A stretch of 64,000 bases of DNA, taken from the NCBI GenBank assembly GCA_034521575.1, contig JAXHMJ010000002.1, positions 30,706 through 94,705 on the forward strand, given 5' to 3'. How positions within the stretch are numbered: the first letter of the stretch is position 1; every line of letters starts with the position of its first letter. Position numbers and translations under genes: made by a program. The stretch comes from Candidatus Zhuqueibacterota bacterium. GTDB taxonomy: Bacteria > Zhuqueibacterota > Zhuqueibacteria > Residuimicrobiales > Krinioviventaceae. Below the pieces are notes generated by a model, which was not told where the DNA came from, searched no databases, and saw only the letters and a list, made by a program, of their open reading frames with translations. Shown here piece after piece: positions 5,802 to 39,204 of this stretch.

Positions 5802-6257
5802 ATGGACACAGACGTATTATTGCGACGCTATCCCGAGAAAGATGCGTCCGCACTGATCCCGCTGCTTCAGGATATACAGGAAAGTTACGGTTATCTGTCG
5901 GAACCTGATCTGGCCAAAGTGGCCGGTTACTGTGACGTTCCCCTGTCGCGCATATACGGTGTGGCGACTTTTTATAATCAGTTCAGACTGCAGCCTCTGG
6001 GCAAGTATGTGATCCGTGTTTGCCGCGGAACCGCTTGTCATGTTAAAGGTTCGGGTGATTTACTGACCACACTTGAGAATGAACTCGGCATCAAAGCCGG
6101 TGAAACCACCAAGGATTTGAAATTTTCCATCGAAACCGTAGCTTGTATCGGCGCCTGTAGTATTGCGCCGGTGATTGCGATTAATGATGAATTTTACGGA
6201 AAACTGGATAATAAGAAAGTCAAGAAAATACTCAATGATCTAAAGTCTGAGGAGTAA
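5802..6257 (+). CDS. hydC: [FeFe]-hydrogenase NuoE-like [2Fe-2S] subunit (HydC/HndA family), operon 1
   Basis: Thioredoxin-like 2Fe-2S motifs CRGTAC...CIGACSIAPV. GAGAGG RBS. 151 aa. Confidence 0.88.
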   Translation: MDTDVLLRRYPEKDASALIPLLQDIQESYGYLSEPDLAKVAGYCDVPLSRIYGVATFYNQFRLQPLGKYVIRVCRGTACHVKGSGDLLTTLENELGIKAGETTKDLKFSIETVACIGACSIAPVIAINDEFYGKLDNKKVKKILNDLKSEE

Positions 6258-6260
6258 AAC

Positions 6261-8267
6261 GTGCCATTGCAGAATTCATATCAGGAGATTTTCACCAATT
6301 GCTGGCATAGTACGGAAAATCCCTGTCAATTTTTTATAGATTGTGTCAACAACGGACAAAAATGTCATCAGTCCGACGCCAGCGACAAACGACTCGATGC
6401 CTTTAAAAACGAGATTTTGTTAAACCATCATCAACATCCTGTTGTGTTGATCGGCATGGGAACCTGCGGACTTGCCAACGGCGCCGCCAAAGTTTATGAT
6501 GCCTTTAAGCAGCAGATCGATGCCCTCAATCAAAAAATCGATTTGGTGCAGACCGGATGTGTCGGATATTGTGCCAGGGAAGTGATTGTCGATGTAAAAC
6601 TTCCGGGTTCGCACCGGCTAACCTATTGTGAGGTGCAGCCTAAAGATGTTCCGACTATTGTTGAAGAAACACTGCTCAACCACCGGCCTGTGACCGACAA
6701 GCTGCTGGCGTTTCACAATGTCGGCGGCGAGCAAAAGGGCTGGGATCATGTTCTTGAAATGAAAGAAACCCCGTTTTTCAAAAAACAGCAGAAAAACGTA
6801 CTGGAAAACTGCGGCATAATCGATCCGGAAGAAATCGATCAATATTTGGCGCGCGGCGGTTATCAGGGATTATCCAAAGCGCTGTGGCAGCTGGACGCGC
6901 CCGGCGTCATCCAGCAAGTCCTGGACGGCGGTTTGCGCGGCCGCGGCGGCGGCGGTTTTCCCACCGGTAAAAAATGGCAACTCGCCTACAATTCACCCGG
7001 TGAGCAGAAATATGTGGTTTGTAATGCAGACGAAGGCGATCCCGGCGCGTTCATGGACCGAGCGGTGCTGGAAGGCGATCCGCACAAGGTGGTTGAGGGC
7101 ATGATCCTGGCTGCCTATGCGATCGGCGCCAGTGTGGGATATATTTACTGTCGTGCTGAGTATCCGCTGGCCATTCGCCGGCTGGAAAAAACCATCCAGG
7201 ATGCCAAAGCCTATGGACTGCTTGGAAAGAATATACTGGGCAGCGGGTTCAACTTTGAACTCAAGATCAAAAAAGGCGCGGGCGCCTTTGTGTGCGGCGA
7301 AGAAACAGCGCTGCTGCATTCAATTGAAGGCAAGCGGGGTATGCCCCGGCCGCGTCCCCCTTATCCGTCTGATGAAGGCCTGTTCGGCTGTCCTACCATC
7401 ATCAATAACGTGGAAACCTATGCCAATGTACCGGTGCTGATCCGAAACGGCAGCAAATGGTACTCGGATATCGGCACCGAAGGCTCCAAGGGGACCAAAG
7501 TGTTTGCCCTCTCCGGCACGGTCAAAAATGTCGGACTGGTTGAAGTGCCTATGGGTGTGACCCTGCGTGAAATTATTTTCGATATCGGCGGCGGCATTCA
7601 GGATGACAAGCCGTTCAAAGCCGTACAGATCGGCGGTCCGTCCGGCGGCGCATTGCCGGATTCGGTGATCGATACTCCGGTCGATTACGAGTCACTGAAA
7701 AGCATCGGCGCCATGATGGGCTCCGGTGGTCTGGTGGTCATGGACGAGTCCACCTGTATGGTGGATCTGGCCAAATATTTTATGACATTCATCCAGTCCG
7801 AGAGCTGCGGCAAGTGTATACCCTGCCGGGAAGGCACCAAACGGCTTTTGGAAATCCTGGAACGTCTGACCGAGAGTCACCGCAGCGAAAAAACGGTGGA
7901 AGAATCGCTGTTGCGCTTTCAGGGAATGGTTTACCTGGAACGTCTGGCAGATGTGATCAAAAATACCTCGTTATGCGGATTGGGTCAAACCGCAGCCAAC
8001 CCGGTATTGAGTACCCTTAAATATTTCCGGGAAGAGTACGAGTCTCACTTGTACGACCGAAAATGTCCGGCCGGCAGCTGCCGTCAATTGCTGACCTATA
8101 GAATTGATACCGACAAATGTACCGGCTGTACGTTGTGCGCGCGCAAATGTCCGGAAAACGCAATACTCGGAGAGCGCAAAAAAGCTCATTATATCATTGA
8201 TGAGAAATGTATCCGTTGCGACCAATGCCGCGCCAATTGCAAGTTTGATGCTATAGTCGTGGAATAA
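6261..8267 (+). CDS. hydB: [FeFe]-hydrogenase NuoF-like flavoprotein subunit (HydB/HndC family). It has an N-terminal fused HndB-like thioredoxin-like domain, a ~60-aa Cys/His-rich leader, and a C-terminal 2x[4Fe-4S] ferredoxin domain.
   Basis: GTG start 7 nt after a GAGGAG RBS. VLIGMGTCGLANGAAKV (HndB-like). NADH/FMN site GRGGGGFPTGKKW. Fe-S motifs ESCGKCIPCREG, CTGCTLCARKCP and CIRCDQCRANC. Confidence 0.88.
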   Translation: MPLQNSYQEIFTNCWHSTENPCQFFIDCVNNGQKCHQSDASDKRLDAFKNEILLNHHQHPVVLIGMGTCGLANGAAKVYDAFKQQIDALNQKIDLVQTGCVGYCAREVIVDVKLPGSHRLTYCEVQPKDVPTIVEETLLNHRPVTDKLLAFHNVGGEQKGWDHVLEMKETPFFKKQQKNVLENCGIIDPEEIDQYLARGGYQGLSKALWQLDAPGVIQQVLDGGLRGRGGGGFPTGKKWQLAYNSPGEQKYVVCNADEGDPGAFMDRAVLEGDPHKVVEGMILAAYAIGASVGYIYCRAEYPLAIRRLEKTIQDAKAYGLLGKNILGSGFNFELKIKKGAGAFVCGEETALLHSIEGKRGMPRPRPPYPSDEGLFGCPTIINNVETYANVPVLIRNGSKWYSDIGTEGSKGTKVFALSGTVKNVGLVEVPMGVTLREIIFDIGGGIQDDKPFKAVQIGGPSGGALPDSVIDTPVDYESLKSIGAMMGSGGLVVMDESTCMVDLAKYFMTFIQSESCGKCIPCREGTKRLLEILERLTESHRSEKTVEESLLRFQGMVYLERLADVIKNTSLCGLGQTAANPVLSTLKYFREEYESHLYDRKCPAGSCRQLLTYRIDTDKCTGCTLCARKCPENAILGERKKAHYIIDEKCIRCDQCRANCKFDAIVVE

Positions 8268-8281
8268 AACAGAGGAATACA

Positions 8282-9993
8282 ATGAGAATAACGATAAATG
8301 GAAAAGAATGCTGGGCCAATCCCGGAGAAACCATATTAAAAGTGGCTGAGCGGGAAGGTATCAATATCCCCACTCTTTGTTATTTAAAAGGCCTTTCTCC
8401 GACCGGTTCCTGCCGAATCTGTATAGTACAAGTTGACGGCGGCCGGATGGCGCCTTCCTGTGCGTTCCCGGTTTGCGAAGGCATGAACGTGGAAACCAAC
8501 TCTGCCCAAGTGCGCCGGGCGCGAAAAACCATTATTGAATTATTGATTGCCAATCATCCTCAGGATTGTCTGAACTGTGTCCGCAACGGCAACTGTGAAT
8601 TGCAGACGCTTGCCGAGGCTTATGGTGTACGCAGCAAGCGCTACATCGGTGAGCGCCGCAAAGCCAAACTGGATGTGGCGTCTCCGTCGATTGAACGCGA
8701 TCCGGAAAAATGTATTTTGTGCGGCCGCTGTGTGCGCGTTTGTCATGAGGTTCAGGGTGTCGGCGCCATTGATATCGCCAACCGCGGATTTCAGAGTACG
8801 GTGATGCCGGCGTTCAATCACAGTCTGAATACCGTGGCTTGTGTGTTCTGCGGTCAGTGTGTGGTCAATTGTCCCGTAGGCGCGCTGCGCGAAAAAAGCC
8901 ATGTGAAAAAAGTTTGGGAAGCGCTCAATGATCCGGACACGCTGGTGGTTTCACAGATCGCTCCGGCGGTACGTGTGGCTCTGGGTGAAGAGTTTGGACT
9001 GGAACCCGGTACCGTGGTGACCGGCAAAGCGGTGAGCGCGCTGCGCCGCATTGGCATGGATGTGGTGTTTGATACCAATTTCAGCGCCGATCTGACCATC
9101 ATGGAAGAAGCCACGGAACTGGTGTCGCGTCTGCAAAATAACGGCACCATCCCCATGCTGACCTCATGCAGTCCCGGATGGATAAAATATATAGAACATT
9201 TTTATCCCGAACTGCTGGAGCATGTGTCGAGCTGTAAATCCCCGCATCAGATGCAGGGTGCGCTGATCAAATCCTACTGGGCGGAGAAAAGGGAATCGAT
9301 CCGGAAAAGATTTTTGTAGTATCTATTATGCCCTGTACTGCCAAAAAATATGAAGCGCAGCGTCCGGAACTGGGAGATGAGCATCAGGATGTAGATGCGG
9401 TACTGACCACGCGCGAGCTGGCGCAGATGATAAAAACAGCAGGAATCGATTTTACCAGAATAGAAGATGATCATTTCGATGATCCGCTGGGCGAATCCAC
9501 TGGCGCGGCTATTATTTTCGGCGCCACCGGCGGTGTGATGGAAGCGGCGCTGCGAACCGCCCATTACAGCCTGACGGGTACGGAATGCGCTGATATTGAA
9601 TTCAAACCCATCCGCGGTCTGGAAGGCGTGAAGGAGGCTGAGATTAAGATCGACGGCACCGAACTCAGGGTTGCTGCGGTCAACAGTCTCAGCCAGATCA
9701 AATCTCTGCTCGATGATATCCGCGACGGCAAATCGCCGTATCAATTCATTGAAGTGATGGCCTGTCCGGGCGGCTGTATCAACGGCGGCGGTCAGCCACT
9801 GCCCTCGGATGCGGAAAAAACTGAAAAACGTATGCAGTCCATTTACAAGATCGACCGCGGGCTGCCGAAACGCTGTTCGCACCAGAATGAATCAGTGCAA
9901 AGACTGTATCAGGAATTTCTGGAAAAACCGAACAGCCACAAAGCCCACGAACTGCTGCACACACATTACGTCAAACGCACGGAAAGTGTCTAA
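8282..9993 (+). CDS. hydA: [FeFe]-hydrogenase catalytic subunit (HydA, group A multimeric type), operon 1. It is split by an apparent 1-nt deletion near 9283 into 8282..9319 and 9328..9993.
   Basis: N-terminal 2Fe-2S and His-ligated/4Fe-4S ferredoxin modules (CRICIV, HPQDCLNCVRNGNCELQ, CILCGRCVRVC, CVFCGQCVVNCP). H-cluster motifs TSCSPGW (L1, non-canonical), MPCTAKKYE (L2) and EVMACPGGCINGGGQP (L3). Paralog alignment with the 18606 gene shows a missing 't' in 'aaaa(t)ggg'. Confidence 0.85.
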
Positions 9994-10002: not shown

Positions 10003-12033
10003 ATGGCTGTTGTCTGGACCATAGAAGAAAAATGCCGGCGCTGCTATTCCTGCGTCCGGGAATGTCCGGCCAAGGCGATCAAGGTTGAACACGGTCAGGC
10101 CAAAGTGATCGAGAACCGATGCCTGGGATGCGGACATTGTGTAAATGTGTGCTCTCAGGGTGCCAAAGAAGTGCTGAACGGCACCCGGGAGGTCATGCAT
10201 TACCTAAAATCGGACAGCGTGATTGCCATGCTGGCGCCGTCGTTTCCGGCTGTTTATCCGGATCTGGATACCCAACAGCTCGTCGGCGCCCTGCGCGCCT
10301 GCGGGTTTGATAAAGTCGTTGAAGTGGCATTCGGCGCGGATCTGGTCAACAAGGCGTATTTGCATCTGCTAAAAGCCCCTGATGATCCGGATATCGAAAC
10401 AATGCTGCCGGTGATTGCATCGTCGTGTCCGGCGATTTTTTCCTATGTTCAGAAATATATACCGGAGCTGGTACCGCATATTGCCCGCATTGTATCGCCG
10501 ATGGTGGCCATGGGACGCGCAGTGAATTATTTATATGGTCAGGACAAACGGGTGGTTTTCATCGGACCCTGCACGGCTAAAAAAGTTGAAATACAGGATG
10601 AACAGGTCAGTGATTCCGTGGATATGGTGCTGACCTTTGCCGAGCTGAACGATCTGTTTCAGTATTATCAAATTGATTTTGATGCTGTTGCCCCCCGGCC
10701 TCTGGATCCGCCGCATGCGTATCTGGGACGCCTGTATCCGGTGTCAGGCGGTTTTCTGCGCAGCGCCGGACTGCCTACGGATCTGATGAATGATGATATT
10801 GTGTTAACCGAGGGCAAAAACCGGGTTCTCAATTTGCTGGATCTGGTGAAGAAAAAGGAAATCGACGCCAAGCTTATTGATGTGCTGTTTTGTGAAGGCT
10901 GTATCAGCGGTCCGTTTTCCAATAAAAGTGAAAATTATTTTGACAGCAAGCGCAACATTGTGCGCTATACCGAGAACCGGCGCAACCAGGCCGATTATCC
11001 GGCCTGGCGGGAAACAATCGAAGACTGTTTGTCCCACGTAAATCTATATCGTTCTTTTAAAGCAGAATCGGTCAATAACCCCGAGCCGACGGAAGAAGAG
11101 ATTTCTGAAATTCTGGCGCGCATTGATAAACATGAAAAATCCGACGAGCTGAACTGCGGCGCCTGCGGCTATTCTTCATGCCGCGAACACGCGGTTGCGG
11201 TTTATCAGGGACTGGCCGAAGCGGATATGTGTCTGCCATTTCTTATCGACAAGATGGAACATATGAAAAATAAACTGCAGGCCTCTCTGGACAAGCTTGC
11301 GACCACGCAGGAGCAGTTGATTCAACATGAAAAACTGGCGTCAATCGGACAGCTGGCGGCCGGAGTCGCGCATGAAGTCAATAATCCGCTCGGTTCAATC
11401 CTGCTGTACGCGCATCTGGTCAAACAGCGAATGGATCAGGCTGAGGACGATGCAAAAGATCTGAGCTTTATTATCGAGGAAGCCAAACGCTGTCAGAACA
11501 TTGTATCCGGTCTGCTTGATTTTTCACGACAGGGACAGCTTACACTCAAACAGAATCATGTACCGGATATTATTTTGAAAATGATTGAGGTGGTCAAAGA
11601 ACAGCCCGAGTTTAAGCATGTCCGAATTCATACGGAATTTGCTGATGATCTGCCCGAGATTTATGTTGATGAGGATCAGCTGTATCAGGTGTTTTTGAAT
11701 ATCACCATGAATGCGGCTGAAGCTATGCCGGAGGGAGGAGACCTGACCATCAAGGCATTTTTGGATGATGACACCAACAAGATGCGCATCACATTCACGG
11801 ACACCGGTGTTGGAATCTCCAAAGACAATCAGAGCAAGGTGTTTACCCCCTTTTTCACCACAAAACAGATCGGCAAGGGAACCGGCCTGGGTCTGGCGAT
11901 CGCCTATGGTATATTAAAAATGCATAAAGGCAATATTCGTGTTAAAAGCGAGGTTGATAAAGGATCTACCTTTATTGTTGATATTCCCCTCGCTTCTAAT
12001 CAAACCATAACCAAAAAGGAGCAAGATGACTAA
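10003..12033 (+). CDS. HydS-like sensory [FeFe]-hydrogenase domain fused to a histidine kinase transmitter (2x[4Fe-4S] ferredoxin + H-domain + Cx2Cx4Cx16C + HisKA + HATPase_c)
   Basis: Ferredoxin motifs CRRCYSCVRECP and CLGCGHCVNVC. H-cluster-like motifs SSCP (L1 with first Cys to Ser), GPCTAKKVE (L2), FCEGCISGP (L3 variant). CGACGYSSC-x16-C. H-box HEVNNPLG. N/G boxes NITMNAAEAM, DTGVGI, GKGTGLGLAIAYG. Start is 10 nt after the hydA stop. Confidence 0.85.
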   Translation: MAVVWTIEEKCRRCYSCVRECPAKAIKVEHGQAKVIENRCLGCGHCVNVCSQGAKEVLNGTREVMHYLKSDSVIAMLAPSFPAVYPDLDTQQLVGALRACGFDKVVEVAFGADLVNKAYLHLLKAPDDPDIETMLPVIASSCPAIFSYVQKYIPELVPHIARIVSPMVAMGRAVNYLYGQDKRVVFIGPCTAKKVEIQDEQVSDSVDMVLTFAELNDLFQYYQIDFDAVAPRPLDPPHAYLGRLYPVSGGFLRSAGLPTDLMNDDIVLTEGKNRVLNLLDLVKKKEIDAKLIDVLFCEGCISGPFSNKSENYFDSKRNIVRYTENRRNQADYPAWRETIEDCLSHVNLYRSFKAESVNNPEPTEEEISEILARIDKHEKSDELNCGACGYSSCREHAVAVYQGLAEADMCLPFLIDKMEHMKNKLQASLDKLATTQEQLIQHEKLASIGQLAAGVAHEVNNPLGSILLYAHLVKQRMDQAEDDAKDLSFIIEEAKRCQNIVSGLLDFSRQGQLTLKQNHVPDIILKMIEVVKEQPEFKHVRIHTEFADDLPEIYVDEDQLYQVFLNITMNAAEAMPEGGDLTIKAFLDDDTNKMRITFTDTGVGISKDNQSKVFTPFFTTKQIGKGTGLGLAIAYGILKMHKGNIRVKSEVDKGSTFIVDIPLASNQTITKKEQDD

Positions 12034-12412
12034 CCATATTTTACTGATCGATGACGACGTCGATTTTGTGGAAATGAATAAAACCTTTTTGGAAACCAAA
12101 GGGTATACGGTAGATACCGCATACAATGGAACCGAAGGGGTGGAGCGCGTCAAAGAATCCGCGCCGAACTTGATCGTTCTGGATGTTATGATGGATCAGG
12201 TGGGGGAAGGATTTGAAGTGGCGCGGACTCTGAAACAGGATGAACAGTATAAACACATTCCCATCATCATGCTCACATCCGTAAACAAGGAACATGGATT
12301 TGATCTGACGGTGGGTGCGGACGAACAATGGAATCCTGTCGATTGCTTTTTAGAGAAACCATTGTCGCCTCAGGATTTATTAGCAAAAGTCAGAGAATTT
12401 TTGTCGGAATAA
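12026..12412 (+). CDS. stand-alone response-regulator receiver (CheY-like, no output domain)
   Basis: LLIDDDVDF...LIVLDVMMD...LTS...K: the Asp pocket and phospho-Asp are conserved. The gene overlaps the sensor-kinase stop. Confidence 0.85.
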   Translation: MTNHILLIDDDVDFVEMNKTFLETKGYTVDTAYNGTEGVERVKESAPNLIVLDVMMDQVGEGFEVARTLKQDEQYKHIPIIMLTSVNKEHGFDLTVGADEQWNPVDCFLEKPLSPQDLLAKVREFLSE

Positions 12413-12430: not shown

Positions 12431-12823
12431 ATGAACGATAAAGTACTTTTGGTAGATGATGATGTCGATCTGATTGAACAATATACACCGGTTCTGGAGC
12501 AGGCCGGTTATCAGGTAAAAGGCGCCTATGACAGCAAAGAAGGCCTGGAGGCATTTGAAGCATTTAAACCGGATGTGGTTTTTGTTGATCTGGCCATGGA
12601 GCAGTTTGATTCCGGGTTTGTGCTTTGCCAAAAGCTGAAAAAAACGCAAAAAGGTGCAGACACGCCGGTGATTATCATGACCTCAGCCGGTCACGAAACC
12701 GGTATTCGCTTTTCCACGGATACGGCGGAGGAGAAAAAATGGATCCGCGCGGATGATTATCTGGAAAAACCGGTTGCGCCCCGCGATCTGGTGCAATATC
12801 TGAATGAAAAAATCTTTAAATGA
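12431..12823 (+). CDS. stand-alone response-regulator receiver (second copy, no output domain)
   Basis: VLLVDDDVDL...VVFVDLAME...MTS...K. 130 aa. Confidence 0.85.
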   Translation: MNDKVLLVDDDVDLIEQYTPVLEQAGYQVKGAYDSKEGLEAFEAFKPDVVFVDLAMEQFDSGFVLCQKLKKTQKGADTPVIIMTSAGHETGIRFSTDTAEEKKWIRADDYLEKPVAPRDLVQYLNEKIFK

Positions 12824-14301
12824 AAATTAAAAACGCCGACATATTGGTTGTGGATGATGAACGCGGTATGCGGGAAGGGATTCAGAGACTGCTGGGCCTG
12901 AAAGGCCTGAATGTGGATACGGCCGAGAGTGGCAGTGAAGGGATTGAAAAAGGCATTTCAAAAGAATATGACCTGTATTTCATTGATCTGAAAATTCCGG
13001 ATATTGAAGGCACCCAGGTGCTGCGTGAGATCAAGCTGGCCTATCCTGAAGCGATTTGTGTGATCCTGACCGCTTATGCGTCCATTGAAACCGCCATTGA
13101 AACCACTCAGCTCGGCGCTTATCAATATATTCCCAAACCGTTTGATCCGGAAGAGCTGCAGAATCTGGTCAACCGGGCGCTCGAAAAACGCTGGTACGTG
13201 CTGGAAGCGCGTCAGCTGCGTGAAGAGCGCGAAAAACGTCTTTTGGAACTGCAGCATGAACAATCGCGGGTCCGCAGTATCGTCAATGCTTTGGATGACG
13301 GGGTGGTGGTGATCAATGTGGACGGCCAGGTGGTGTTTCACAACTCGAGTTTTTTAAAGATGCTCAATGTGCCCAATGATTTTCAGACCGGTGAACAGGT
13401 TTGGGATATTGTGCCGGGAGAACTGCATGACCAGATCAAGGAGGTCATGGCGCAGCAGGATGATTTTCGCGCCATCAAACAGGAAATCACCATCAAACCG
13501 CCGGCTGAACTGGTGCTGATGGCCAACACGACGCCCATTGTTGATACGGATCATGAACTCATCGGTGTGGTATCGGTTTTACGCGATATTTCGGAACTCA
13601 AAAAACTGGACATTTTGAAATCCCAGTTTGTGAATATGGCAGCCCATGAACTCAAGGCGCCCCTGGCTGCCGTTCAGGGATACCTTGATTTGATCATTGA
13701 TCGTTCCCTCGGAGACAATCTTGACAGCTATCAGACCTACCTGGAGCGCTCCCACGACCGCCTCGAAGCTCTTATTTCCATGATCAATGATCTTTTGAAT
13801 ATTTCCAGAATGGAAGCCGGCAAAGTCAGACGTGAAATTGAACAAGTCGATCTGGCCGGTTTGCTTAAAGATAAAATTGAACTGTTTACAAAAGAAATAA
13901 AGCAGAAAAATTTACAACTTGATATTCGTCTGCAGAAAGATTTCATGGTGAAATGCGATCGCGAAGAAATAGAACGCGTTTTTAACAATCTGATCAGCAA
14001 TGCCGTCAAATATAATAAAGAAAACGGTACAATATCGATCAAAGCAGGTAAAGACGGACACTATGCCAAAGTCAGTGTCAGTGATACCGGAATCGGTTTG
14101 CAGCCTGATGAAAAGGACCGGCTGTTTGAAGAATTTTATCGGGCTAAAAACAAGTTTACACGAAAAATCACCGGTACCGGACTGGGTTTGTCTATTGTCA
14201 AACGTATTATAGACGCCAACGCCGGAAAAATCATTGTCGAAAGTGAATTTGAAAAAGGAACAACCTTTACCGTCTTTTTGCCACTGGAAACTGAATACTA
14301 G
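12820..14301 (+). CDS. hybrid sensor kinase: N-terminal REC + PAS + HisKA + HATPase_c
   Basis: REC (ILVVDDERGM...LYFIDLKIPD), PAS-like segment (VVVINVDGQVVFHNSSFLKM), H-box AAHELKAPL, N box NLISNAVKYN, G boxes DTGIGL/GTGLGLSIV. Overlaps the upstream REC stop (ATGA). Confidence 0.85.
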   Translation: MKIKNADILVVDDERGMREGIQRLLGLKGLNVDTAESGSEGIEKGISKEYDLYFIDLKIPDIEGTQVLREIKLAYPEAICVILTAYASIETAIETTQLGAYQYIPKPFDPEELQNLVNRALEKRWYVLEARQLREEREKRLLELQHEQSRVRSIVNALDDGVVVINVDGQVVFHNSSFLKMLNVPNDFQTGEQVWDIVPGELHDQIKEVMAQQDDFRAIKQEITIKPPAELVLMANTTPIVDTDHELIGVVSVLRDISELKKLDILKSQFVNMAAHELKAPLAAVQGYLDLIIDRSLGDNLDSYQTYLERSHDRLEALISMINDLLNISRMEAGKVRREIEQVDLAGLLKDKIELFTKEIKQKNLQLDIRLQKDFMVKCDREEIERVFNNLISNAVKYNKENGTISIKAGKDGHYAKVSVSDTGIGLQPDEKDRLFEEFYRAKNKFTRKITGTGLGLSIVKRIIDANAGKIIVESEFEKGTTFTVFLPLETEY

Positions 14302-14350: not shown

Positions 14351-14692
14351 ATGAAGCTGTCAGAGATTGCTCAGGCTCTCGGTCTGGACATAATCAGCGG
14401 TGAATCGAATCTGGACAAACAAGTGGAATATGGCTATTTGTCTGATATTCTCAGTGATGTGATGTCCAGGGCGCCTAAAGCAGCGATCTGGATCACCAAT
14501 CAAACCCATGAAAATATCCTGGCCCTGGTCTTCTTCAAGGGACTGGCCGGGGTGATCCTGCCGGAAAACATGTCTCTGGAAGAGGCGTCGATTAAAAAAG
14601 CGGAAGAGAAAAATATACCGGTGTTTCGAAGCAATTTGACGGCATTCGATATCGCCGGTCGATTGTACGAGCTGGGTATACGAGGTCAATAA
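14351..14692 (+). CDS. DRTGG-domain protein (hydrogenase-associated small regulator)
   Basis: 113 aa. Sequence LSDILSDVMS...NILALVFFKGLAGVIL is typical of the DRTGG/CBS-associated domain found next to HydABC operons. Confidence 0.6.
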   Translation: MKLSEIAQALGLDIISGESNLDKQVEYGYLSDILSDVMSRAPKAAIWITNQTHENILALVFFKGLAGVILPENMSLEEASIKKAEEKNIPVFRSNLTAFDIAGRLYELGIRGQ

Positions 14693-15444
14693 TGCTCAGT
14701 TGGTACAAAGCGGATTTGCATATCCATACGGTGCTTTCGGCCTGTGCTGAACTCAGCATGGGACCGAAAGATATTGTCCGTAAGAGCCTTGAACAGGGAC
14801 TGGATATCATCGCGATCACCGATCATAATTCCGCTGAAAATATCACGGCCGTCATCAAAGCCGCGGAATCGACCGATTTGCTGGTGCTTCCCGGTATGGA
14901 AGTGTACAGCCGCGACGAGGCGCATATTGTCTGTCTGTTTGAAACCCTGGGTGATGTGCTTGCGTTTCAGCGTATCATCTATGCGGCAGTGGCTGAAGGC
15001 AAATATGATTCAAGTATGTTCGGCGAGCAGATTCTTTGTGATGCGAATGAAAATGTACTCGGTGAAAGCGATCGGCTTTTATCGCTGCCGGTGAATCTGA
15101 ATCTGGATCAGATTGCGGATTATATTGCAGAGTTTAACGGCATTATGATTCCGGCGCATGTGGACCGGCGGTCTCACAGCATCTTGCGGGTGCTGAGTTT
15201 TATGCCGAATAATCTTCCGATTTACGCAATGGAGATCGCGCATTCGTATGAAAAGGCGTGCAAATCTTTCAGTATATTAAAGAACGGCAAGTATTCGGTG
15301 ATCCGCTCTTCGGATGCGCATGATATTGATCAGATTGGCCAAAAGTTTACGTATTTCAAGCTAAAAGAAAAGTCGTTCAGCGAGATACGCAAGGCCCTGC
15401 GTCAGGTGGACGGACGAATGGCATCACTGGACAAGGTGAACTGA
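14692..15444 (+). CDS. PHP-domain (polymerase/histidinol-phosphatase-like) metal-dependent phosphoesterase
   Basis: ADLHIHTVLS...IAITDHNS...HVDRR His/Asp metal-binding motifs. Start overlaps the DRTGG stop (TAATG). Confidence 0.75.
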   Translation: MLSWYKADLHIHTVLSACAELSMGPKDIVRKSLEQGLDIIAITDHNSAENITAVIKAAESTDLLVLPGMEVYSRDEAHIVCLFETLGDVLAFQRIIYAAVAEGKYDSSMFGEQILCDANENVLGESDRLLSLPVNLNLDQIADYIAEFNGIMIPAHVDRRSHSILRVLSFMPNNLPIYAMEIAHSYEKACKSFSILKNGKYSVIRSSDAHDIDQIGQKFTYFKLKEKSFSEIRKALRQVDGRMASLDKVN

Positions 15445-15992
15445 TGCGCGAACTGTCGCTGAACATACTGGATATCATCACCAATTCCATCGAAGCGGAG
15501 GCAAACCGTGTGATTCTGCATATTGATGAAGACAAGGTGGAAAATCGTCTGACTTTTCGGATTCGGGACAACGGCCGCGGCATGAGTCAGGAATTTGTCC
15601 GGCAGGTGATGGATCCGTTTGTCACATCGCGCACCACGCGTCCGGTGGGCATGGGCCTGTCACTGTTGCACCAGCTGGCGCGGCAGGCGCGCGGAGACCT
15701 TGATATTCGATCAGAACTCGGTCAGGGTACGGAGGTCAGTACCTATTTGCGACTGCATTGCCTCAATCGACCGCCTCTGGGTGATGTGGGCGGGACGATT
15801 GTCAATCTGGTGATCAGCAATCTGGATGTGCATTTTATGTACATCCACACAACAGACTATGGACGGCTCTGGTTTGATTCTTACTGGATACTGGCGCGGG
15901 CGGCGGAACAGGATAAAACGCTTTACGATATGATTCATCCGTCTTTGGAACATATCAAAAGCCGGTTGAAAGACATTAATTCGAAAGCATAA
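15444..15992 (+). CDS. GHKL/HATPase_c-type ATP-binding protein (anti-sigma-factor / Ser-kinase-like)
   Basis: NILDIITNSIEA (N-box-like), RIRDNGRGM (G1), GMGLSLL (G2). Overlaps the PHP stop (CTGATG). Confidence 0.7.
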   Translation: MRELSLNILDIITNSIEAEANRVILHIDEDKVENRLTFRIRDNGRGMSQEFVRQVMDPFVTSRTTRPVGMGLSLLHQLARQARGDLDIRSELGQGTEVSTYLRLHCLNRPPLGDVGGTIVNLVISNLDVHFMYIHTTDYGRLWFDSYWILARAAEQDKTLYDMIHPSLEHIKSRLKDINSKA

Positions 15993-16010
15993 AATGAGAG
16001 AATAACAGGT

Positions 16011-16033
16011 TCCCGGGTGAATCCGGGATTTTA
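16011..16033 (+). terminator. weak hairpin (CCCGG-gtgaat-CCGGG) followed by ATTTT, between the HATPase gene and hndB
   Basis: 5-bp GC stem plus a short T-tract. Possible attenuator/terminator separating the regulatory genes from hydrogenase operon 2. Confidence 0.3.
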
Positions 16034-16064
16034 GAATGGAAACCAAAGACAAGGAGGTCCAGAA

Positions 16065-16427
16065 GTGAAAACACTTGCAGATCTTCGCGCGGTCAAAGAA
16101 CAAGCCAAAAAAGAAATGGCCGCTCGTGAAAAAACAGCAAAGTACCGTGTCTGTGTCGGCATGGGCACATGCGGTATTGCAGCAGGCGCCCGGGATGTGA
16201 TGAGCGCGCTGCTGGACGAAATCAGTAAACGAGGTGTTGAAGACGCGGTGGTCACGCAGACGGGCTGCCAGGGATACTGTGATCAGGAACCGCTGGTACA
16301 GGTGACTCAGCCGGATAAAACTGTCATTTCCTACGGCAAAGTGACGCCCCAGAGCGCCCGTGATATTGTGGCGCAGCATATCATAGAGGGTAACGTGCTC
16401 TCTGATCTGGTGTTTAAACAGGATTAA
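16065..16427 (+). CDS. hndB: HndB-like small thioredoxin-like [2Fe-2S] ferredoxin subunit, operon 2
   Basis: VCVGMGTCGIAAGA...CQGYCDQEP. GTG start after an AAGGAGG RBS. Confidence 0.8.
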   Translation: MKTLADLRAVKEQAKKEMAAREKTAKYRVCVGMGTCGIAAGARDVMSALLDEISKRGVEDAVVTQTGCQGYCDQEPLVQVTQPDKTVISYGKVTPQSARDIVAQHIIEGNVLSDLVFKQD

Positions 16428-16474
16428 GAAGAACAAATCAAGACGTGTATACGCGTTAAACAAGGAGGTTATCA

Positions 16475-16951
16475 ATGCAGAACTTGGATCGAGTGGATGC
16501 GATCGTGAAAAATTATAACGATATGAAAACACCACTCATTTACATTCTCAAGGATGTTCAGAAAGAATACGGATTTCTCTCTGAGGATATTCTGACGCGG
16601 GTCGCACAGAGAACCGATATCCCTCTGAGCAATATCTATGGTGTTGCGACATTTTACAGTCTCTTCACCACAGAAGAAAAGGGCAAATATATCGTTCGCT
16701 GCTGCAACAATGCCCCCTGTCATGTCAAAGGTTCAAAAGATGTTCTGGATGCAATCCAGAATTATCTCGGTGTGCAGGTCAATGAGACCTCACTGGACAA
16801 GACATTTACTCTGGAATTTACCAGCTGTCTCGGATTGTGTGCGGTTGCTCCCGTCATGATGATCAATGACGAGGTATATGGTAATCTGACTCCGGAAAAA
16901 GCAGTGTCAATTTTGAAAGATTATAAAATGAAAGGGCTGTCGAATGCATAG
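16475..16951 (+). CDS. hndA: NuoE-like [2Fe-2S] subunit (HndA/HydC family), operon 2
   Basis: CCNNAPCHVKG...CLGLCAVAPV. Paralogous to 5802..6257. Confidence 0.88.
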   Translation: MQNLDRVDAIVKNYNDMKTPLIYILKDVQKEYGFLSEDILTRVAQRTDIPLSNIYGVATFYSLFTTEEKGKYIVRCCNNAPCHVKGSKDVLDAIQNYLGVQVNETSLDKTFTLEFTSCLGLCAVAPVMMINDEVYGNLTPEKAVSILKDYKMKGLSNA

Positions 16952-18546
16952 ATCACATATACTCATCGCAATGGACGCTCACACGATAGCCCAGGGTGCC
17001 CGTGCCGTCAAGGAGGCTCTCGTGCGTGAGCTTGAAATGGCAAATCTCGGCAATGAGGTCAAGGTTGTTGAAACCGGCAGTCTGGGAATTTACAACAAGG
17101 GCGTGGTTCTGGTTGTGTTTCCGGATGCGGTTTACTATGCCGGTGTCAAGGTGGAAGATGTATCCGAGATTATTTCCGAGCACATTATCAAAGGGCGCAT
17201 TGTCGAACGTCTGCGCTATACCGACGTACCCGAATACAAAGAAGGCGAACAGGGCGAAGCCCCGCGCTTTGGCAAACAGATACGCGTTGTGTTGAAGAAC
17301 GCCGGCAATATTGATCCGGAAAGCATTCAGGAATATATCGCGAATGACGGTTATGAAGCGCTGGGACGTGCATTGACCGAGATGAAACCCGGTGAGGTGC
17401 TGGAAACCGTGAAAAACAGTGAACTGCTGGGACGCGGCGGCGCGTTTTTTCCCACTGGATTGAAATGGAGTTTTGCCGCAGCTGAAAAAAACACGCCCAA
17501 ATATATTGTCTGTAACGCCGATGAAGGCGAACCCGGCACATTTAAAGACCGGTTGATCCTGGAAGGCGATCCGCACCTCATTTTAGAGGGTATGGCACTG
17601 TCCGGATACGCGGTCGGCGCATCCATGGGCTATATTTACATTCGCGGTGAATATAAAATGTCCATTGAACGCATCAACCGCGCCATTGAACAGGCGCGTG
17701 AAAACGGATTGTTGGGCGAAAACCTGTTCGATTCGGATTTTTCTTTTGATATTGAGGTGCGTGAAGGCGCAGGCGCCTATATCTGCGGTGAGGAAACCGC
17801 TTTGATTGAATCGATCGAAGGCAAACGCGGTGAACCGCGTGATAAACCGCCGTTTCCGCCGTCAGAAGGTCTGTGGGGTAAACCCACAATCGTCAATAAT
17901 GTGGAAACTCTGGCCAATATTCCGCCGATTCTGCGCAATGGTCCGGACTGGTTCAAGAAAATGGGAACCGAGAAAAGCCGCGGCACCAAGGTGTTTACCA
18001 TGGTCGGCAATATCAACAATCCCGGATTGATCGAAGTGCCCATGGGCATCACGCTTCGTGAAATCATTTACGATATCGGACATGGCATTCCCAACGGCAA
18101 GGGCTTTAAACTGGCTCAGATGGGCGGCACCACCGGTGGTATTCTGACGGAAGAACACCTGGACATGCCCATGACGGTTGAAAATCTGCGCAGTGTCGGA
18201 GCCGGTCTGGGTTCGGGCGCTCTGCTGGTGGTTGATGAGTCTCAGGATGTGGTTGATCTGGTTCGCAATTTTGTTGAATTTTTCAACCATGAATCCTGCG
18301 GCAAATGTACACTGTGCCGTGAAGGCAACGGTCGACTGCTGCAGCTGCTGGATAAAATCCTGGACGGTCAGGGAACCGTTAAAGATATTGAATTGATGCA
18401 AGAATTTGGCACAGACCATGATGAAAGGCGCGTTCTGCGGCCTGGGTCAGGCCGCTCCCATTCCCGTGCTGGGATGTCTGAACCATTTCAGGAAAGATTT
18501 TCTGGCGGTTGTCCAAACCGCAGCGTCTGAAATTGAAGCTGCCTGA
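16944..18546 (+). CDS. hndC: NuoF-like flavoprotein subunit (HndC/HydB family), operon 2. An apparent 1-nt indel near 18405-18417 moves the last ~40 aa into another frame. It has no fused N-terminal HndB domain and no C-terminal ferredoxin tail.
   Basis: GRGGAFFPTGLKW, HESCGKCTLCREG. Then TMMKGAFCGLGQAAPIPV...AASEIEAA in frame +1, matching the NTSLCGLGQTAANPV tail of the paralog. Confidence 0.85.
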
Positions 18547-18605
18547 GGTCTGTGAAGCAATGTTGAACTGGAACTGTGATAATCATGAATAAACGGAGGT
18601 GTCCT

Positions 18606-20345
18606 GTGGCAAACGTCACCGTAACCATAGACGGCATTCAGCTGAGTGTTCCCCAGGGGACAACAGTCATGGATGCTGCAGAAAAAGCAAAAATACAAAT
18701 TCCACGATTGTGCTATCATCCTGATCTTCCTCCGGTCTCCGCCTGCCGCCTGTGTGTGGTCGAAATTGAAGGCGACCGGCTGTTGAGAACCGCGTGTTCC
18801 TGGAAGTGTCAGGACGGTATGAACATCAAAACACGCACCAAACAGGTGCGCGATTCCCGTAAAATGGCGCTGGAACTGATTCTGTCGCGTCACCCCATGT
18901 TGTGCACCGAATGTGTGCGCAATCAGGATTGCGAACTCCAGAGCATGGCGGAACAGCTGGGTATTCGCGAAACCCGTTTTGAATACTCGGAGCGTCCCGG
19001 TGTAGCCGATCATTCCAGTGAAGCGATTGTTCGCGATCCGGCCAAATGTATCCTGTGCCGCCGTTGTATCCAGACCTGTGAACTGGTGCAGAGCGTCAGC
19101 GCGATCGGCCTGGAAGGCCGCGGCTATGATACCTGGGTGGATACACCGTTCGGCAAAGGCATCGCCGATGTGGCGTGTGTGTCCTGTGGTCAATGTATCG
19201 ACCGCTGTCCGGTCGGCGCCTTGTACGAAAATCCGCATATCCAGCGTGTCTGGGATGCGATTGATGATCCGGAAAAACATGTGGTCATCCAGACGGCTCC
19301 GGCTGTCCGCGCTGCCATTGGCGAAGAGTTCGGTATGGAACCGGGGTCACTGGTCACGGATAAAATGGTGACCGGTCTGCGCATGCTGGGTGTGGACAAG
19401 GTGTTTGATACCAACTTTACCGCGGATCTGACCATTATGGAAGAAGGTCATGAGCTGCTGGGTCGCATCAAAAACGGCGGTACTTTGCCGCTCTTGACCA
19501 GCTGTTCGCCGGGATGGATTAATTTTATCGAGCATTTCTATCCCAGTCTGCTGCCGCACGTGTCCTCCTGTAAATCGCCGCAGCAGATGTTCGGCGCTTT
19601 GGCAAAAACCTATTACGCGGATAAAATGGGTATCAAACCGGAAAATATTTACAGTGTTTCGGTCATGCCCTGCACCGCGAAAAAAGTCGAAGCCGGACGT
19701 CCTGAGATGAACGACAGCGGATTCCAGGATGTGGATGCGGTACTGACCACGCGCGAAGCGGCGTTTATGATGAAACAGGTGGGTATCAATCTACCGGATT
19801 TGCAGCCCGGCGAATATGATGAACCTCTGGGTGTATCAACCGGCGCCGCTGTGATTTTCGGCAACACCGGCGGTGTGATGGAAGCGGCCCTGCGTACCGT
19901 GTATGAAGTGGTGACCGAATCCAAGATCGAAGATGTCAATATCAAAGCCGTACGCGGCATGCAAGGCGTTCGTGAAGCGGAAATCAATCTAAACGGCACC
20001 ATCGTCAAGGGCGCGGTCGCCAACGGACTGGCCAATGCGCGCCAGCTCATGGACAAGATCGTGTCCGGTGAAGCGGATTACCACTTTATCGAGATCATGG
20101 CCTGTCCGGGCGGATGTATCGGCGGCGGCGGTCAGCCGATCCCGACGTCCATGGACATCCGTCAGAAACGTGTGGATGCCATCTATGCGGCGGATGAAAG
20201 TCTCGAAATCCGCAAATCACATGAAAATCCGGCGGTGATCAAACTCTATAAAGAGTTCCTGGGTGAACCGAACGGACATAAATCTCATGAACTGCTGCAC
20301 ACGCATTATACGGAAAAACAGGTCTACAAAGACGTACCTGCTTAA
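18606..20345 (+). CDS. hndD: [FeFe]-hydrogenase catalytic subunit, operon 2 (intact). A GTG start at 18606 is assumed after a GGAGG RBS; an upstream ATG at 18576 is possible.
   Basis: N-terminal ferredoxin modules as in hydA. H-cluster motifs TSCSPGW, MPCTAKKVE and EIMACPGGCIGGGGQP. Confidence 0.88.
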   Translation: MANVTVTIDGIQLSVPQGTTVMDAAEKAKIQIPRLCYHPDLPPVSACRLCVVEIEGDRLLRTACSWKCQDGMNIKTRTKQVRDSRKMALELILSRHPMLCTECVRNQDCELQSMAEQLGIRETRFEYSERPGVADHSSEAIVRDPAKCILCRRCIQTCELVQSVSAIGLEGRGYDTWVDTPFGKGIADVACVSCGQCIDRCPVGALYENPHIQRVWDAIDDPEKHVVIQTAPAVRAAIGEEFGMEPGSLVTDKMVTGLRMLGVDKVFDTNFTADLTIMEEGHELLGRIKNGGTLPLLTSCSPGWINFIEHFYPSLLPHVSSCKSPQQMFGALAKTYYADKMGIKPENIYSVSVMPCTAKKVEAGRPEMNDSGFQDVDAVLTTREAAFMMKQVGINLPDLQPGEYDEPLGVSTGAAVIFGNTGGVMEAALRTVYEVVTESKIEDVNIKAVRGMQGVREAEINLNGTIVKGAVANGLANARQLMDKIVSGEADYHFIEIMACPGGCIGGGGQPIPTSMDIRQKRVDAIYAADESLEIRKSHENPAVIKLYKEFLGEPNGHKSHELLHTHYTEKQVYKDVPA

Positions 20346-21606: not shown

Positions 21607-21641
21607 ATCACGACTTGTGTCATAACAAACAGGAGGTAACA

Positions 21642-23444: not shown

Positions 23445-23589
23445 AGGTCGTAACATGAAATTAATGATTTTACCATAGGAATCGAAAGCAGCGGTCTAAA
23501 AACTTAAAGGAGGTGTGTTGGAAGCGGTTGTTTTACAGGCAGTACATAAAAAAAAGAGTACAGTTTATCAACCAAACGGAGGCTCAACC

Positions 23590-26377: not shown

Positions 26378-26394
26378 CTCTATAGTTCCCATAT

Positions 26395-26456
26395 AAATCC
26401 TCCCAATTACGGGCAAAGGCTCATTACGCCCCGGTTCTTGGGAGGATTTATTTTAT
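26395..26456 (+). terminator. long inverted repeat (12-bp arms AAATCCTCCCAA/TTGGGAGGATTT) with a T-rich tail after the TonB receptor gene
   Basis: Perfect 12-bp arms around a structured ~31-nt loop, followed by ATTTTAT. Confidence 0.5.
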
Positions 26457-26477
26457 ATCTAAAAAACAGGACTTTAT

Positions 26478-27943: not shown

Positions 27944-27959
27944 TTCTAAATGGAAAAGA

Positions 27960-30043: not shown

Positions 30044-30053
30044 TGAGTATCTA

Positions 30054-32277: not shown

Positions 32278-32372
32278 TCTTTATCAATGAAAATCAGGAT
32301 AAAAGGGTCATTGTAAAAAGATGCGATGGCTTTGAAAATGAATGAATAACCGGATTATAAACAGATACTATT

Positions 32373-33689: not shown

Positions 33690-33707
33690 AAAAAAGAAAG
33701 GTTGATT

Positions 33708-35666: not shown

Positions 35667-35758
35667 ACATTTGGATATCAAAAAAAAATATTATGTCGGT
35701 AATAATGTGACAGTGCAATTAATGAAAATTTATCAAATGAAAATTTGAGGTCATAACG

Positions 35759-39174: not shown

Positions 39175-39204
39175 TCTGAAATAATCTAAAAAGGTGTTCT
39201 GAAT

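What the first reader, a model, noticed from the sequence alone, without database searches (positions are those of the whole stretch)
10003..12033. Sensory [FeFe]-hydrogenase H-domain fused directly to a histidine kinase, transcribed with a bifurcating hydrogenase
One 676-aa ORF, starting 10 nt after the hydA stop, combines three things. First, two ferredoxin-type [4Fe-4S] motifs. Second, an H-cluster domain whose L1 motif is SSCP instead of TSCCP (the proton-relay Cys is replaced by Ser), with L2 GPCTAKKVE and a compressed L3 FCEGC. Third, an exact Cx2Cx4Cx16C motif. These are followed, with no PAS linker, by a complete HisKA/HATPase_c transmitter. Characterised sensory hydrogenases (HydS of Thermotoga and Thermoanaerobacter) carry a PAS domain and signal through separate partner proteins. 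This architecture wires an H2-binding cofactor directly to autophosphorylation, so it is a candidate single-protein H2 sensor. It probably tunes expression of the two flanking hydrogenase operons. The loss of the relay Cys and the extra four-Cys cluster match the non-catalytic sensory groups C/D.
Basis: partly seen in the sequence, partly recalled or inferred. Interest (0 to 1): 0.8.

Follow-up and report, generated by a model that had tools for sequence, protein, structure and literature searches.

The report
Hydrogen-sensor hydrogenase fused to histidine kinase
This gene encodes a slow, sensor-type iron hydrogenase joined directly to a signalling kinase, so it is probably a hydrogen gauge for the neighbouring hydrogenase genes; the description is accurate, but the design is already on record, occurs in hundreds of bacterial species, and has never been tested in the laboratory.

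Summary
ORF 10003..12033 (676 aa) has this domain order: 2x[4Fe-4S] ferredoxin, [FeFe]-hydrogenase H-domain, Cx2Cx4Cx16C FeS domain, one long helix, then HisKA/HATPase_c. There is no PAS domain. All four H-cluster cysteines, the [2Fe]-pocket residues and the phospho-acceptor His are invariant in 119 homologues. The proton-relay Cys is never present.

The architecture is not new. Genomics papers have noted group C [FeFe] hydrogenases with a histidine kinase domain next to bifurcating hydrogenases, in Elusimicrobia, Lernaellota, Hydrogenedentota and Caldithrix. At least 595 species genomes carry relatives, and this exact protein is in NCBI. No biochemical study of the kinase-fused type was found.

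New here:
- The kinase is almost always followed by a stand-alone receiver and a REC-PAS-kinase hybrid (66 of 70 loci each), which suggests a multi-step relay rather than a single-protein circuit.
- The compressed L3 (CxxC) marks the clade whose sensor module is fused to kinase, sigma-54 activator or chemoreceptor outputs. PAS-only HydS proteins keep Cx3C.
- The linker helix varies by exactly one heptad.

Verdict: a new member of a known, uncharacterised kind, of modest interest.

The parts
10003..12033 (+). HydS-HK: a sensory-type [FeFe]-hydrogenase fused to a histidine kinase (676 aa; identical to NCBI MDZ7721752.1)
10021..10164 (+). N-terminal 2x[4Fe-4S] ferredoxin domain (aa 7-54; C11/14/17/21 and C40/43/46/50)
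   Evidence: these Cys are present in 118-119 of 119 homologues
10216..10914 (+). H-domain (aa 72-304). L1 is ASSC142P, L2 is G188-P-C190-TAK193KVE196, and L3 is D293-V-L295-F-C297-E-G-C300-ISGP.
11155..11232 (+). C-terminal Cx2Cx4Cx16C [4Fe-4S] domain (C385, C388, C393, C410; Pfam FeS PF04060)
11233..11349 (+). Signalling helix from C410 into the DHp domain. The model shows one continuous helix, aa 411-476. A 7-residue (one heptad) indel in the family lies at aa 424-430.
11347..11535 (+). HisKA/DHp domain with the phospho-acceptor His457 (codon 11371-11373); invariant Cys497
11668..11994 (+). HATPase_c catalytic domain. The N, G1, F and G2 box residues are invariant.
   Evidence: it superposes on ZraS
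12026..12412 (+). Stand-alone receiver REC1 (128 aa). It overlaps the kinase stop codon by 8 nt.
12431..12823 (+). Stand-alone receiver REC2 (130 aa)
12820..14301 (+). REC-PAS-HisKA-HATPase_c hybrid kinase (493 aa). Its receiver is AtoC/NtrC/ZraR-like and its transmitter is PnpS/PhoR-like.
5802..9993 (+). Upstream trimeric (bifurcating-type) [FeFe]-hydrogenase operon: hydC 5802..6257, hydB 6261..8267, hydA 8282..9993. hydA is frameshifted near 9289 in this assembly.
14351..20345 (+). Second hydrogenase operon: DRTGG, PHP, an HATPase_c-only protein, a small NuoE-like protein, HydC, HydB and HydA. This HydA passes the NCBIfam cut-off for NADH-dependent [FeFe] hydrogenase group A6.
3..718 (+). 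Sigma-54 activator (AAA+) gene fragment. It is cut by the window edge and frameshifted. It is a possible distal output regulator, and that link is inferred only.

Best explanation
The ORF encodes a cytoplasmic sensor histidine kinase whose input module is a group C-type (sensory) [FeFe] hydrogenase.

Shown by sequence and model:
- It has binding sites for two ferredoxin-type [4Fe-4S] clusters, a complete H-cluster, and a fourth [4Fe-4S] cluster.
- The last Cys of that fourth cluster caps a single long helix that runs into the kinase dimerisation helix carrying His457.
- The kinase has every catalytic motif.

Inferred:
- H2 binds to, and is slowly turned over at, an H-cluster that lacks the fast proton relay.
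- The resulting redox or conformational change in the H-domain/FeS-domain unit passes down the coiled-coil helix and changes autophosphorylation of His457.
- The phosphoryl group most likely goes to the NtrC/AtoC-like receiver of the adjacent REC-PAS-kinase hybrid. That hybrid's PhoR-like transmitter would in turn serve the PhoB-like stand-alone receivers.
- The relay would adjust the use or expression of the two flanking HydABC operons according to H2 level. The final output step is unknown.
For: - Domain order and motifs.
- Conservation in 119 homologues: all four H-cluster Cys and all four Cys of the C-terminal cluster are invariant, and the eight ferredoxin Cys are present in 118-119. Also invariant are K193 (CpI K358), E196 (E361), G188 (M353 to G, as in TmHydS) and His457.
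- The [2Fe] pocket is kept: A78 and P79 (invariant) with S80 (114 of 119) correspond to A230-P231-S232, and S165-P166 (invariant) to S323-P324. Y245 takes the place of F417, as Y223 does in TmHydS.
- The relay-Cys position holds S, A, P or T and never C. The other proton-path residues are also absent, as reported for groups C and D.
- The hydrogenase fold is confirmed, and helix 411-476 is continuous.
- 43 of 119 members lack exactly 7 linker residues, so the coiled-coil register is preserved.
- Context in 84 related loci: all 84 are kinase-fused. hydA lies immediately upstream in 56 of 73. A stand-alone REC follows in 66 of 70, and the REC-PAS-HK hybrid in 66 of 70.
- Wiring: the transmitter best matches AtoS and ZraS, and the hybrid's receiver best matches AtoC, NtrC and ZraR. 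The hybrid's transmitter best matches PnpS and PhoR, and REC1 and REC2 best match PhoB.
- Among the 150 closest cluster representatives, the same sensor module is fused to kinase (48), sigma-54 activator (16), chemoreceptor (3) or PAS-only (58) outputs. This is the pattern of a swappable input domain.
Against: - No kinase-fused member has been studied biochemically.
- The characterised HydS proteins differ. TmHydS has a PAS domain, and the PAS-only relatives keep a Cx3C L3. It is untested whether the CxxC L3 of this clade accepts the [2Fe] subcluster.
- In TamHydS the equivalent C-terminal cluster is not reduced by 1 atm H2, so a redox switch at that cluster is doubtful.
- The cassette has no DNA-binding regulator, and there is no sigma-54 promoter consensus upstream of either operon; matches in the window were below chance.
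- HydE and HydG are not in the window.
- The wiring rests only on sub-threshold best-family similarities.
Confidence: 0.65

Rival explanations
1. It senses cellular redox state rather than H2 itself. The N-terminal ferredoxin clusters would exchange electrons with the ferredoxin pool or with HydABC. Alternatively, the H-cluster would act as a CO or O2 detector. Either way, the kinase would report reductant load or inhibitor exposure.
For: - The two ferredoxin-type clusters are present in 118-119 of 119 homologues. In TamHydS they are the main electron path and are reduced under H2.
- The partner hybrid kinase adds a PAS domain that could bring in a second signal.
- One relative sits beside a [NiFe] group 3-type hydrogenase rather than an [FeFe] one.
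Against: - The complete [2Fe] pocket (K193, E196, A78-P79-S80, S165-P166) is kept under strong purifying selection. A plain Fe-S redox sensor would not need it.
- Genetic linkage to hydrogenase operons is tight: hydA is immediately upstream in 56 of 73 loci.
Confidence: 0.15
2. It is a physical accessory subunit of the bifurcating HydABC complex (the published 'BfuT'). It would dock through its ferredoxin domain and either carry electrons or regulate the enzyme post-translationally, with the kinase acting on the complex rather than on transcription.
For: - The Hydrogenedentota study names the orthologue the T subunit of sub-type V BfuABC clusters.
- There is a 9-nt gap after hydA on the same strand.
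- The cassette has no DNA-binding response regulator.
- The second operon carries conserved DRTGG, PHP and HATPase_c accessory genes.
Against: - No evidence of co-purification exists in the papers read.
- Some family members lack an adjacent hydABC (L003, L053, L058, L067, L080).
- The same sensor module is fused to sigma-54 activators and chemoreceptor domains, which are soluble signalling outputs rather than enzyme subunits.
Confidence: 0.12
3. The H-domain binds only its [4Fe-4S] subcluster, as a Nar1-like protein would. The shortened CxxC L3 would prevent insertion of the [2Fe] subsite, so the protein would be an Fe-S or oxidative-stress sensor kinase.
For: - L3 is one residue shorter than in every solved hydrogenase aligned.
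- The CxxC form is absent from the PAS-only relatives, the architecture of TmHydS.
- No member of the CxxC clade has been matured in vitro.
Against: - Residues that contact only the [2Fe] subsite are invariant.
- The small residue G188 at the M353 position matches TmHydS, which does bind [2Fe].
- hydG and hydE lie next to the cassette in several relatives.
Confidence: 0.08

Closest known systems
Kinase-domain group C [FeFe] hydrogenases described in genome surveys: 'BfuT' of sub-type V BfuABC clusters in Hydrogenedentota and Caldithrix abyssi (HydDB entry WP_006928132.1, classed C3), the Ca. Lernaella group C3 hydrogenase, and the lineage V Elusimicrobia group C hydrogenase
   Same: - The same fusion of a sensory H-domain to a histidine-kinase domain, next to a trimeric group A3 hydrogenase.
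- A Hydrogenedentota MAG (L084) and Ignavibacterium and Melioribacter genomes carry direct homologues with the same gene order.
   Different: - Nothing essential differs; this is a KSB1-lineage member.
- Those papers did not report the conserved REC plus REC-PAS-kinase partners, the heptad-variable linker or the CxxC L3 signature.
TmHydS (Thermotoga maritima; group C, M2f, PAS-type sensory [FeFe] hydrogenase)
   Same: - N-terminal 2x[4Fe-4S], an H-domain without the relay Cys, M353 to Gly, F417 to Tyr, and a C-terminal Cx2Cx4Cx16C cluster.
   Different: - TmHydS ends in a PAS domain and has no kinase. Here a coiled-coil helix leads straight into DHp/CA.
- M497 is Leu here and Ser in TmHydS.
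- L3 is CxxC here. The PAS-only relatives have Cx3C in 57 of 58 cases.
TamHydS (Thermoanaerobacter mathranii; group D, M2e)
   Same: - No PAS domain.
- The same three-part Fe-S layout.
- M497 to Leu.
- Encoded next to a bifurcating hydrogenase and kinase-like genes.
   Different: - TamHydS has no fused output domain.
- M353 is Ser in TamHydS and Gly here.
- Its C-terminal cluster is not reduced by H2. The same has not been tested for this clade.
[NiFe] regulatory hydrogenase HoxBC with kinase HoxJ and regulator HoxA (HydDB [NiFe] group 2b, 'histidine kinase-linked')
   Same: - The same logic: a slow, sensor-grade hydrogenase controls a histidine kinase that governs hydrogenase genes (the group 2b description is; the rest is general knowledge).
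   Different: - It uses an unrelated metal site and fold.
- Sensor and kinase are separate proteins that form a complex, and the kinase has a PAS domain.
AtoS, ZraS and NtrB-type cytoplasmic transmitter modules
   Same: - The best sequence and structural matches for aa 434-667 are AtoS (5.4e-67) and ZraS (4.1e-58 against NCBIfam, 1.7e-39 against the crystal structure 9jfj).
   Different: - All scores are far below the equivalog cut-offs.
- The input is an Fe-S/H-cluster module, not a membrane or PAS sensor.

Membership tests
[FeFe] hydrogenase H-domain (Pfam PF02906) | A full-length match to the H-domain model and the hydrogenase fold | tested here: met
   Fe_hyd_lg_C matches model positions 2-245 of 245 at E 1.8e-49. 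Foldseek TM is 0.66-0.68 to DdH, and CpI, CbA5H and TmHydA also match.
[FeFe] hydrogenase H-domain (Pfam PF02906) | Four Cys ligands of the H-cluster, at the L1, L2 and two L3 positions | tested here: met
   C142, C190, C297 and C300 align to the ligand Cys of TmHydA, HDCR HydA2 and CpI. They are invariant in 119 of 119 homologues. L3 spacing is CxxC rather than Cx3C.
[FeFe] hydrogenase H-domain (Pfam PF02906) | The protein actually binds a [2Fe] subcluster and reacts with H2 | not testable with these tools
   This needs maturation plus FTIR or EPR. Only indirect support exists: K193, E196, A78-P79-S80 and S165-P166 are conserved.
Group C / sensory [FeFe] hydrogenase (HydS-like) | Loss of the proton-relay Cys (CpI C299) and of the other proton-path residues | tested here: met
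   C299 is replaced by S141, and this position holds S, A, P or T and never C in 119 sequences. E279 is replaced by A118 and E282 by H121, both variable positions. S319 is replaced by A161. This matches the published description.
Group C / sensory [FeFe] hydrogenase (HydS-like) | N-terminal 2x[4Fe-4S] plus a C-terminal Cx2Cx4Cx16C cluster | tested here: met
   the motif definition is.
Group C / sensory [FeFe] hydrogenase (HydS-like) | A small residue at CpI M353 (Gly, Ser or Thr in sensory enzymes) | tested here: met
   G188 is invariant. The literature gives Gly in about 51% of sensory enzymes, including TmHydS G177.
Group C / sensory [FeFe] hydrogenase (HydS-like) | A C-terminal PAS domain (the M2f architecture) | tested here: not met
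   There is no PAS hit at E<=0.1, and the model has no PAS-like beta sheet between L3 and DHp. It is therefore not an M2f/TmHydS-type member but the kinase-fused variant.
HydDB sub-group (C1 'histidine kinase-linked' or C3) | Assignment by the HydDB k-NN classifier | not testable with these tools
   HydDB is not available here. Published kinase-domain orthologues (Caldithrix WP_006928132.1, Lernaella, Hydrogenedentota BfuT) were classed C3. The sub-group names are listed.
Two-component sensor histidine kinase (HisKA class) | A DHp domain with a phospho-acceptor His, plus a CA domain with N, G1, F and G2 boxes | tested here: met
   HisKA matches at 2.6e-14 and HATPase_c at 3.4e-24. H457, N566, N570, D600, G602, G604, G626, G628 and G630 are invariant or nearly invariant. 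The region superposes on ZraS.
Two-component sensor histidine kinase (HisKA class) | A cognate receiver encoded nearby | tested here: met
   REC1 overlaps the kinase stop codon, and REC2 and the hybrid's REC follow. A receiver lies downstream in 66 of 70 related loci. Which receiver is the true partner is inferred only.
AtoS / ZraS equivalogs (NCBIfam) | A score above the curated cut-off | tested here: not met
   The scores are 226.5 against a cut-off of 646, and 197.2 against 479. Only the transmitter resembles these families.

The most novel reading that the evidence does not exclude
The sensor is the first stage of a conserved, dedicated four-protein phosphorelay: HydS-HK, then the receiver of a REC-PAS-kinase hybrid, then stand-alone receivers. 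This relay sits between two different HydABC operons. It would switch the cell between them, or between H2 production and H2 uptake, according to H2 pressure, with no classical DNA-binding response regulator in the cassette. In addition, the CxxC-L3 sensor module would be a portable H2-input domain that evolution has plugged into kinase, sigma-54 activator and chemoreceptor outputs. That would make this clade the most direct system for finally showing how an [FeFe] H-cluster transmits a signal.
Probability: 0.3. Interest if true: 0.6.

Novelty: new member of a known kind. Interest (0 to 1): 0.3.

Why it matters
How putative sensory [FeFe] hydrogenases pass on a signal is an open question. [quoted passage not shown] A version with the kinase built in gives a direct biochemical readout, H2-dependent autophosphorylation, and has an obvious set of partner proteins. 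This clade is therefore a good experimental entry point, and cultured carriers exist (Melioribacter, Rosettibacter, Ignavibacterium). This particular gene is one ordinary member among hundreds, and the architecture has been noted before, so the window adds little beyond a clean example.

Tried and rejected
- A hidden PAS domain between the FeS domain and the kinase: rejected. There is no Pfam hit, and the model is all-helical there.
- A Nar1-like or generic Fe-S fold: not supported.
- A sigma-54 promoter (TGGCAC-N5-TTGCW, up to 2 mismatches) upstream of hydC or the second operon: none found, and matches in the window were below chance.
- Operator-like inverted repeats in the hydC leader and the other intergenic gaps: nothing convincing.
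- Sigma-70 promoter and terminator scans were not informative, with counts near the shuffled expectation.
- hydE and hydG in the window: absent by tblastn. They are present next to the cassette in several relatives.
- The Greening 2016 ISME J paper that defines group C could not be read, because it is not held in the library.
- A search for biochemical work on kinase-fused HydS found nothing relevant.
- Model coordinates were not exposed, so Cys-Cys and cluster-to-cluster distances could not be measured.
Full report
**Observation**

ORF 10003..12033 on the + strand is intact and encodes 676 aa. Its ATG lies 10 nt after the last base of the upstream stop codon. Pfam gives this domain order:
- ferredoxin-type dicluster, aa 7-54
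- Fe_hyd_lg_C across the whole model, aa 72-304, E 1.8e-49
- FeS domain PF04060, aa 383-412
- HisKA, aa 449-511
- HATPase_c, aa 556-664

No PAS match appears even at E 0.1.

The cysteines fall into the expected groups:
- eight Cys for two [4Fe-4S] clusters
- C142, C190, C297 and C300 in the H-domain
- C385, C388, C393 and C410, which form an exact Cx2Cx4Cx16C

HMMER alignments to solved hydrogenases place ASSC142P on TSCCP. The relay Cys becomes Ser, and the ligand Cys is kept. They also place FIGPC190TAKKVE on FMPCTAKKFE, and VLFC297E-GC300ISG on VMACNYGCVGG, so L3 is one residue shorter.

An AlphaFold2 model built on 65 homologues has a mean pLDDT of 85.4. Its N-terminal 370-430 residues superpose on DdH, CpI, CbA5H and TmHydA, and its C-terminus superposes on the ZraS kinase core. 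Residues 305-383 are helical, and 411-476 form one unbroken helix, so there is no cryptic PAS fold.

**Is the H-domain a real cofactor site?**

In an alignment of 119 full-length homologues (47-71% identity), the following are invariant:
- all four H-cluster Cys
- K193 (CpI K358) and E196 (E361)
- A78 and P79 (A230, P231), with S80 (S232) in 114 of 119
- S165-P166 (S323-P324)

The M353 position is always Gly, as in TmHydS G177. The F417 position is Tyr in 98 sequences and Phe in 21, as Y223 is in TmHydS. The M497 position is always Leu, as in TamHydS.

The relay-Cys position holds S, A, P or T and never Cys. The E279 and E282 equivalents are variable and non-acidic here, and the S319 equivalent is Ala. 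This is the pattern published for groups C and D. It argues for a genuine but slow H-cluster site.

The main caveat is the CxxC L3. Among the 150 closest 50%-identity cluster representatives of the sensor module, PAS-only proteins have Cx3C in 57 of 58 cases. The kinase-, sigma-54-activator- and chemoreceptor-fused proteins have CxxC in 48 of the 54 I could score. No CxxC-type protein has been matured in vitro as far as the searchable literature shows.

**The kinase and the linker**

The phospho-acceptor His457 and the N, G1, F and G2 boxes are invariant or nearly so. The transmitter is closest to AtoS and ZraS, though far below their equivalog cut-offs.

The last cluster ligand, C410, sits at the start of the helix that carries His457 47 residues later. 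Of 119 family members, 43 lack exactly seven residues in this helix (aa 424-430). That is one heptad, which is what a register-sensitive coiled-coil signalling helix would tolerate.

**Context**

Upstream lies a HydC-HydB-HydA operon (5802..9993). Downstream lie two stand-alone receivers, a REC-PAS-HisKA-HATPase_c hybrid, and then a second hydrogenase operon that begins with DRTGG, PHP and HATPase_c genes.

I compared 84 related loci: 80 species genomes plus 4 contigs. The results were:

| Feature | Loci |
|---|---|
| H-domain gene fused to a kinase | 84 of 84 |
| hydA immediately upstream | 56 of 73 evaluable |
| stand-alone receiver downstream | 66 of 70 evaluable |
| REC-PAS-kinase hybrid downstream | 66 of 70 evaluable |
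| two group A hydA genes in the locus | 33 of 84 |
| NtrC-type sigma-54 regulator in the locus | 12 of 84 |

The window holds a frameshifted sigma-54 activator fragment at its 5' edge, about 5 kb from hydC. I found no sigma-54 promoter consensus upstream of either operon.

The hybrid's receiver best matches AtoC, NtrC and ZraR, the partners of the kinase families that HydS-HK resembles. The hybrid's transmitter best matches PnpS and PhoR, and REC1 and REC2 best match PhoB receivers. I therefore propose this wiring: HydS-HK to the hybrid's receiver, then the hybrid's kinase to the stand-alone receivers. This is inference from sub-threshold similarities, not a demonstrated pathway.

**Mechanism**

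[quoted passage not shown] The signal would pass through the FeS domain and the coiled coil to the kinase. The kinase would feed a multi-step relay that governs the flanking hydrogenases.

One earlier idea should be downgraded. In TamHydS the equivalent C-terminal cluster is not reduced by 1 atm H2, and its authors conclude that its redox state is not the signal. That domain may therefore act as a structural lever here.

The rivals are:
- a general redox, CO or O2 sensor
- a physical 'T' subunit of HydABC
- a [4Fe-4S]-only Nar1-like sensor

Conservation of the [2Fe] pocket counts against the first and third of these. The fact that the same module is fused to sigma-54 activators and chemoreceptor signalling domains counts against the subunit idea.

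**Comparison with what is known**

HydDB lists [FeFe] group C1 as 'histidine kinase-linked (putative)', alongside C2 (chemotactic) and C3. Three genomics papers describe the fusion itself:
- Ca. Lernaella has a group C3 hydrogenase with a histidine kinase domain next to a group A3 gene.
- Hydrogenedentota and Caldithrix have 'BfuT', a group C3 hydrogenase with a histidine kinase domain, in sub-type V gene clusters.

Enzymology reviews still describe group C only as PAS-fused.

The family is large. They include cultured Rosettibacter, Melioribacter and Ignavibacterium, plus KSB1, Bacteroidota, Hydrogenedentota, Acidobacteriota and other MAGs. The exact protein is NCBI MDZ7721752.1, from a candidate-division MAG with a 1.17 Mb contig.

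TamHydS has no PAS domain, and the characterised HydS enzymes are slow but not non-catalytic.

**Verdict**

This is a new member of a known but experimentally untouched kind. The additions from this analysis are:
- the near-universal REC plus REC-PAS-kinase partner set
- the receiver and transmitter family matches that suggest the wiring
- the heptad-variable linker
- the CxxC L3 as a marker of the clade with swappable outputs

Interest is modest (0.3). The clade is a good experimental system for an open question, but this instance is not special.

Noticed in passing
window 8282..9993 (junction near 9289-9292): The group A hydA upstream of the finding is split into two ORFs by a 1-nt frameshift in an A-run (GAGAAAAGGG). 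Orthologues are a single protein of about 570 aa. This is probably an assembly indel rather than a pseudogene.
   Followed up: yes
window 898..2074 and 3..860: sucC (898..1836 plus 1655..2074) and a sigma-54 activator gene at the window edge (3..380 plus 329..718) are also frameshifted. The assembly therefore looks indel-prone, as a long-read MAG would be. The finding's own ORF is collinear with 119 homologues.
   Followed up: partly
proteins P0157, P0163, P0172, P0173, P0180, P0196, P0201, P0226: Close relatives of the sensor module (Fer4 x2, H-domain, FeS) are fused directly to a sigma-54 activator AAA+ domain and an HTH, with or without a PAS domain. These would be candidate one-component H2-responsive enhancer-binding proteins. 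P0162 is fused to an MCP signalling domain instead. They make up 16 and 3 of the 150 closest cluster representatives.
   Followed up: partly
window 10879..10914 (L3): L3 spacing splits the sensory clade cleanly. PAS-only proteins have Cx3C in 57 of 58 cases. Kinase-, activator- and MCP-fused proteins have CxxC in 48 of 54 scorable cases. A few show CCxGC.
   Followed up: partly
window 11272..11292 (aa 424-430): Exactly seven residues of the FeS-to-DHp helix are missing in 43 of 119 homologues, which is a one-heptad length polymorphism.
   Followed up: partly
window 11491..11493 (Cys497): A Cys in the second DHp helix is invariant in 119 of 119 family members. Its role is unknown; it could be a redox-sensitive or structural residue.
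   Followed up: no
L003 1..12240 (JGI Ga0315268_10000386): Here the kinase-fused [FeFe] sensor is divergently placed next to a [NiFe] group 3-type hydrogenase operon (NiFeSe_Hases, Oxidored_q6, an FAD/NAD subunit and Fer4_22). No group A [FeFe] hydrogenase is nearby. An [FeFe]-type sensor may therefore control a [NiFe] enzyme.
   Followed up: no
L072 and L084: Two kinase-fused HydS paralogues occur in the same locus, one of them in a Hydrogenedentota MAG.
   Followed up: no
window 14351..16427: The second hydrogenase operon begins with DRTGG, PHP, a 182-aa HATPase_c-only protein and a truncated NuoE-like ORF. This set is conserved in KSB1-type relatives (L005, L007-L016). Its function is unexplained.
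   Followed up: no
window 20599..49980: Downstream of the hydrogenase region lies a polysaccharide-utilisation-like stretch: a LacI regulator, a protein with a T9SS sorting domain, a TonB-dependent receptor, a sulfatase, two proteins with a BT_1020-like beta-propeller and a sialidase-like CBM, and a beta-helix protein. This is consistent with an FCB-group (KSB1) organism.
   Followed up: no
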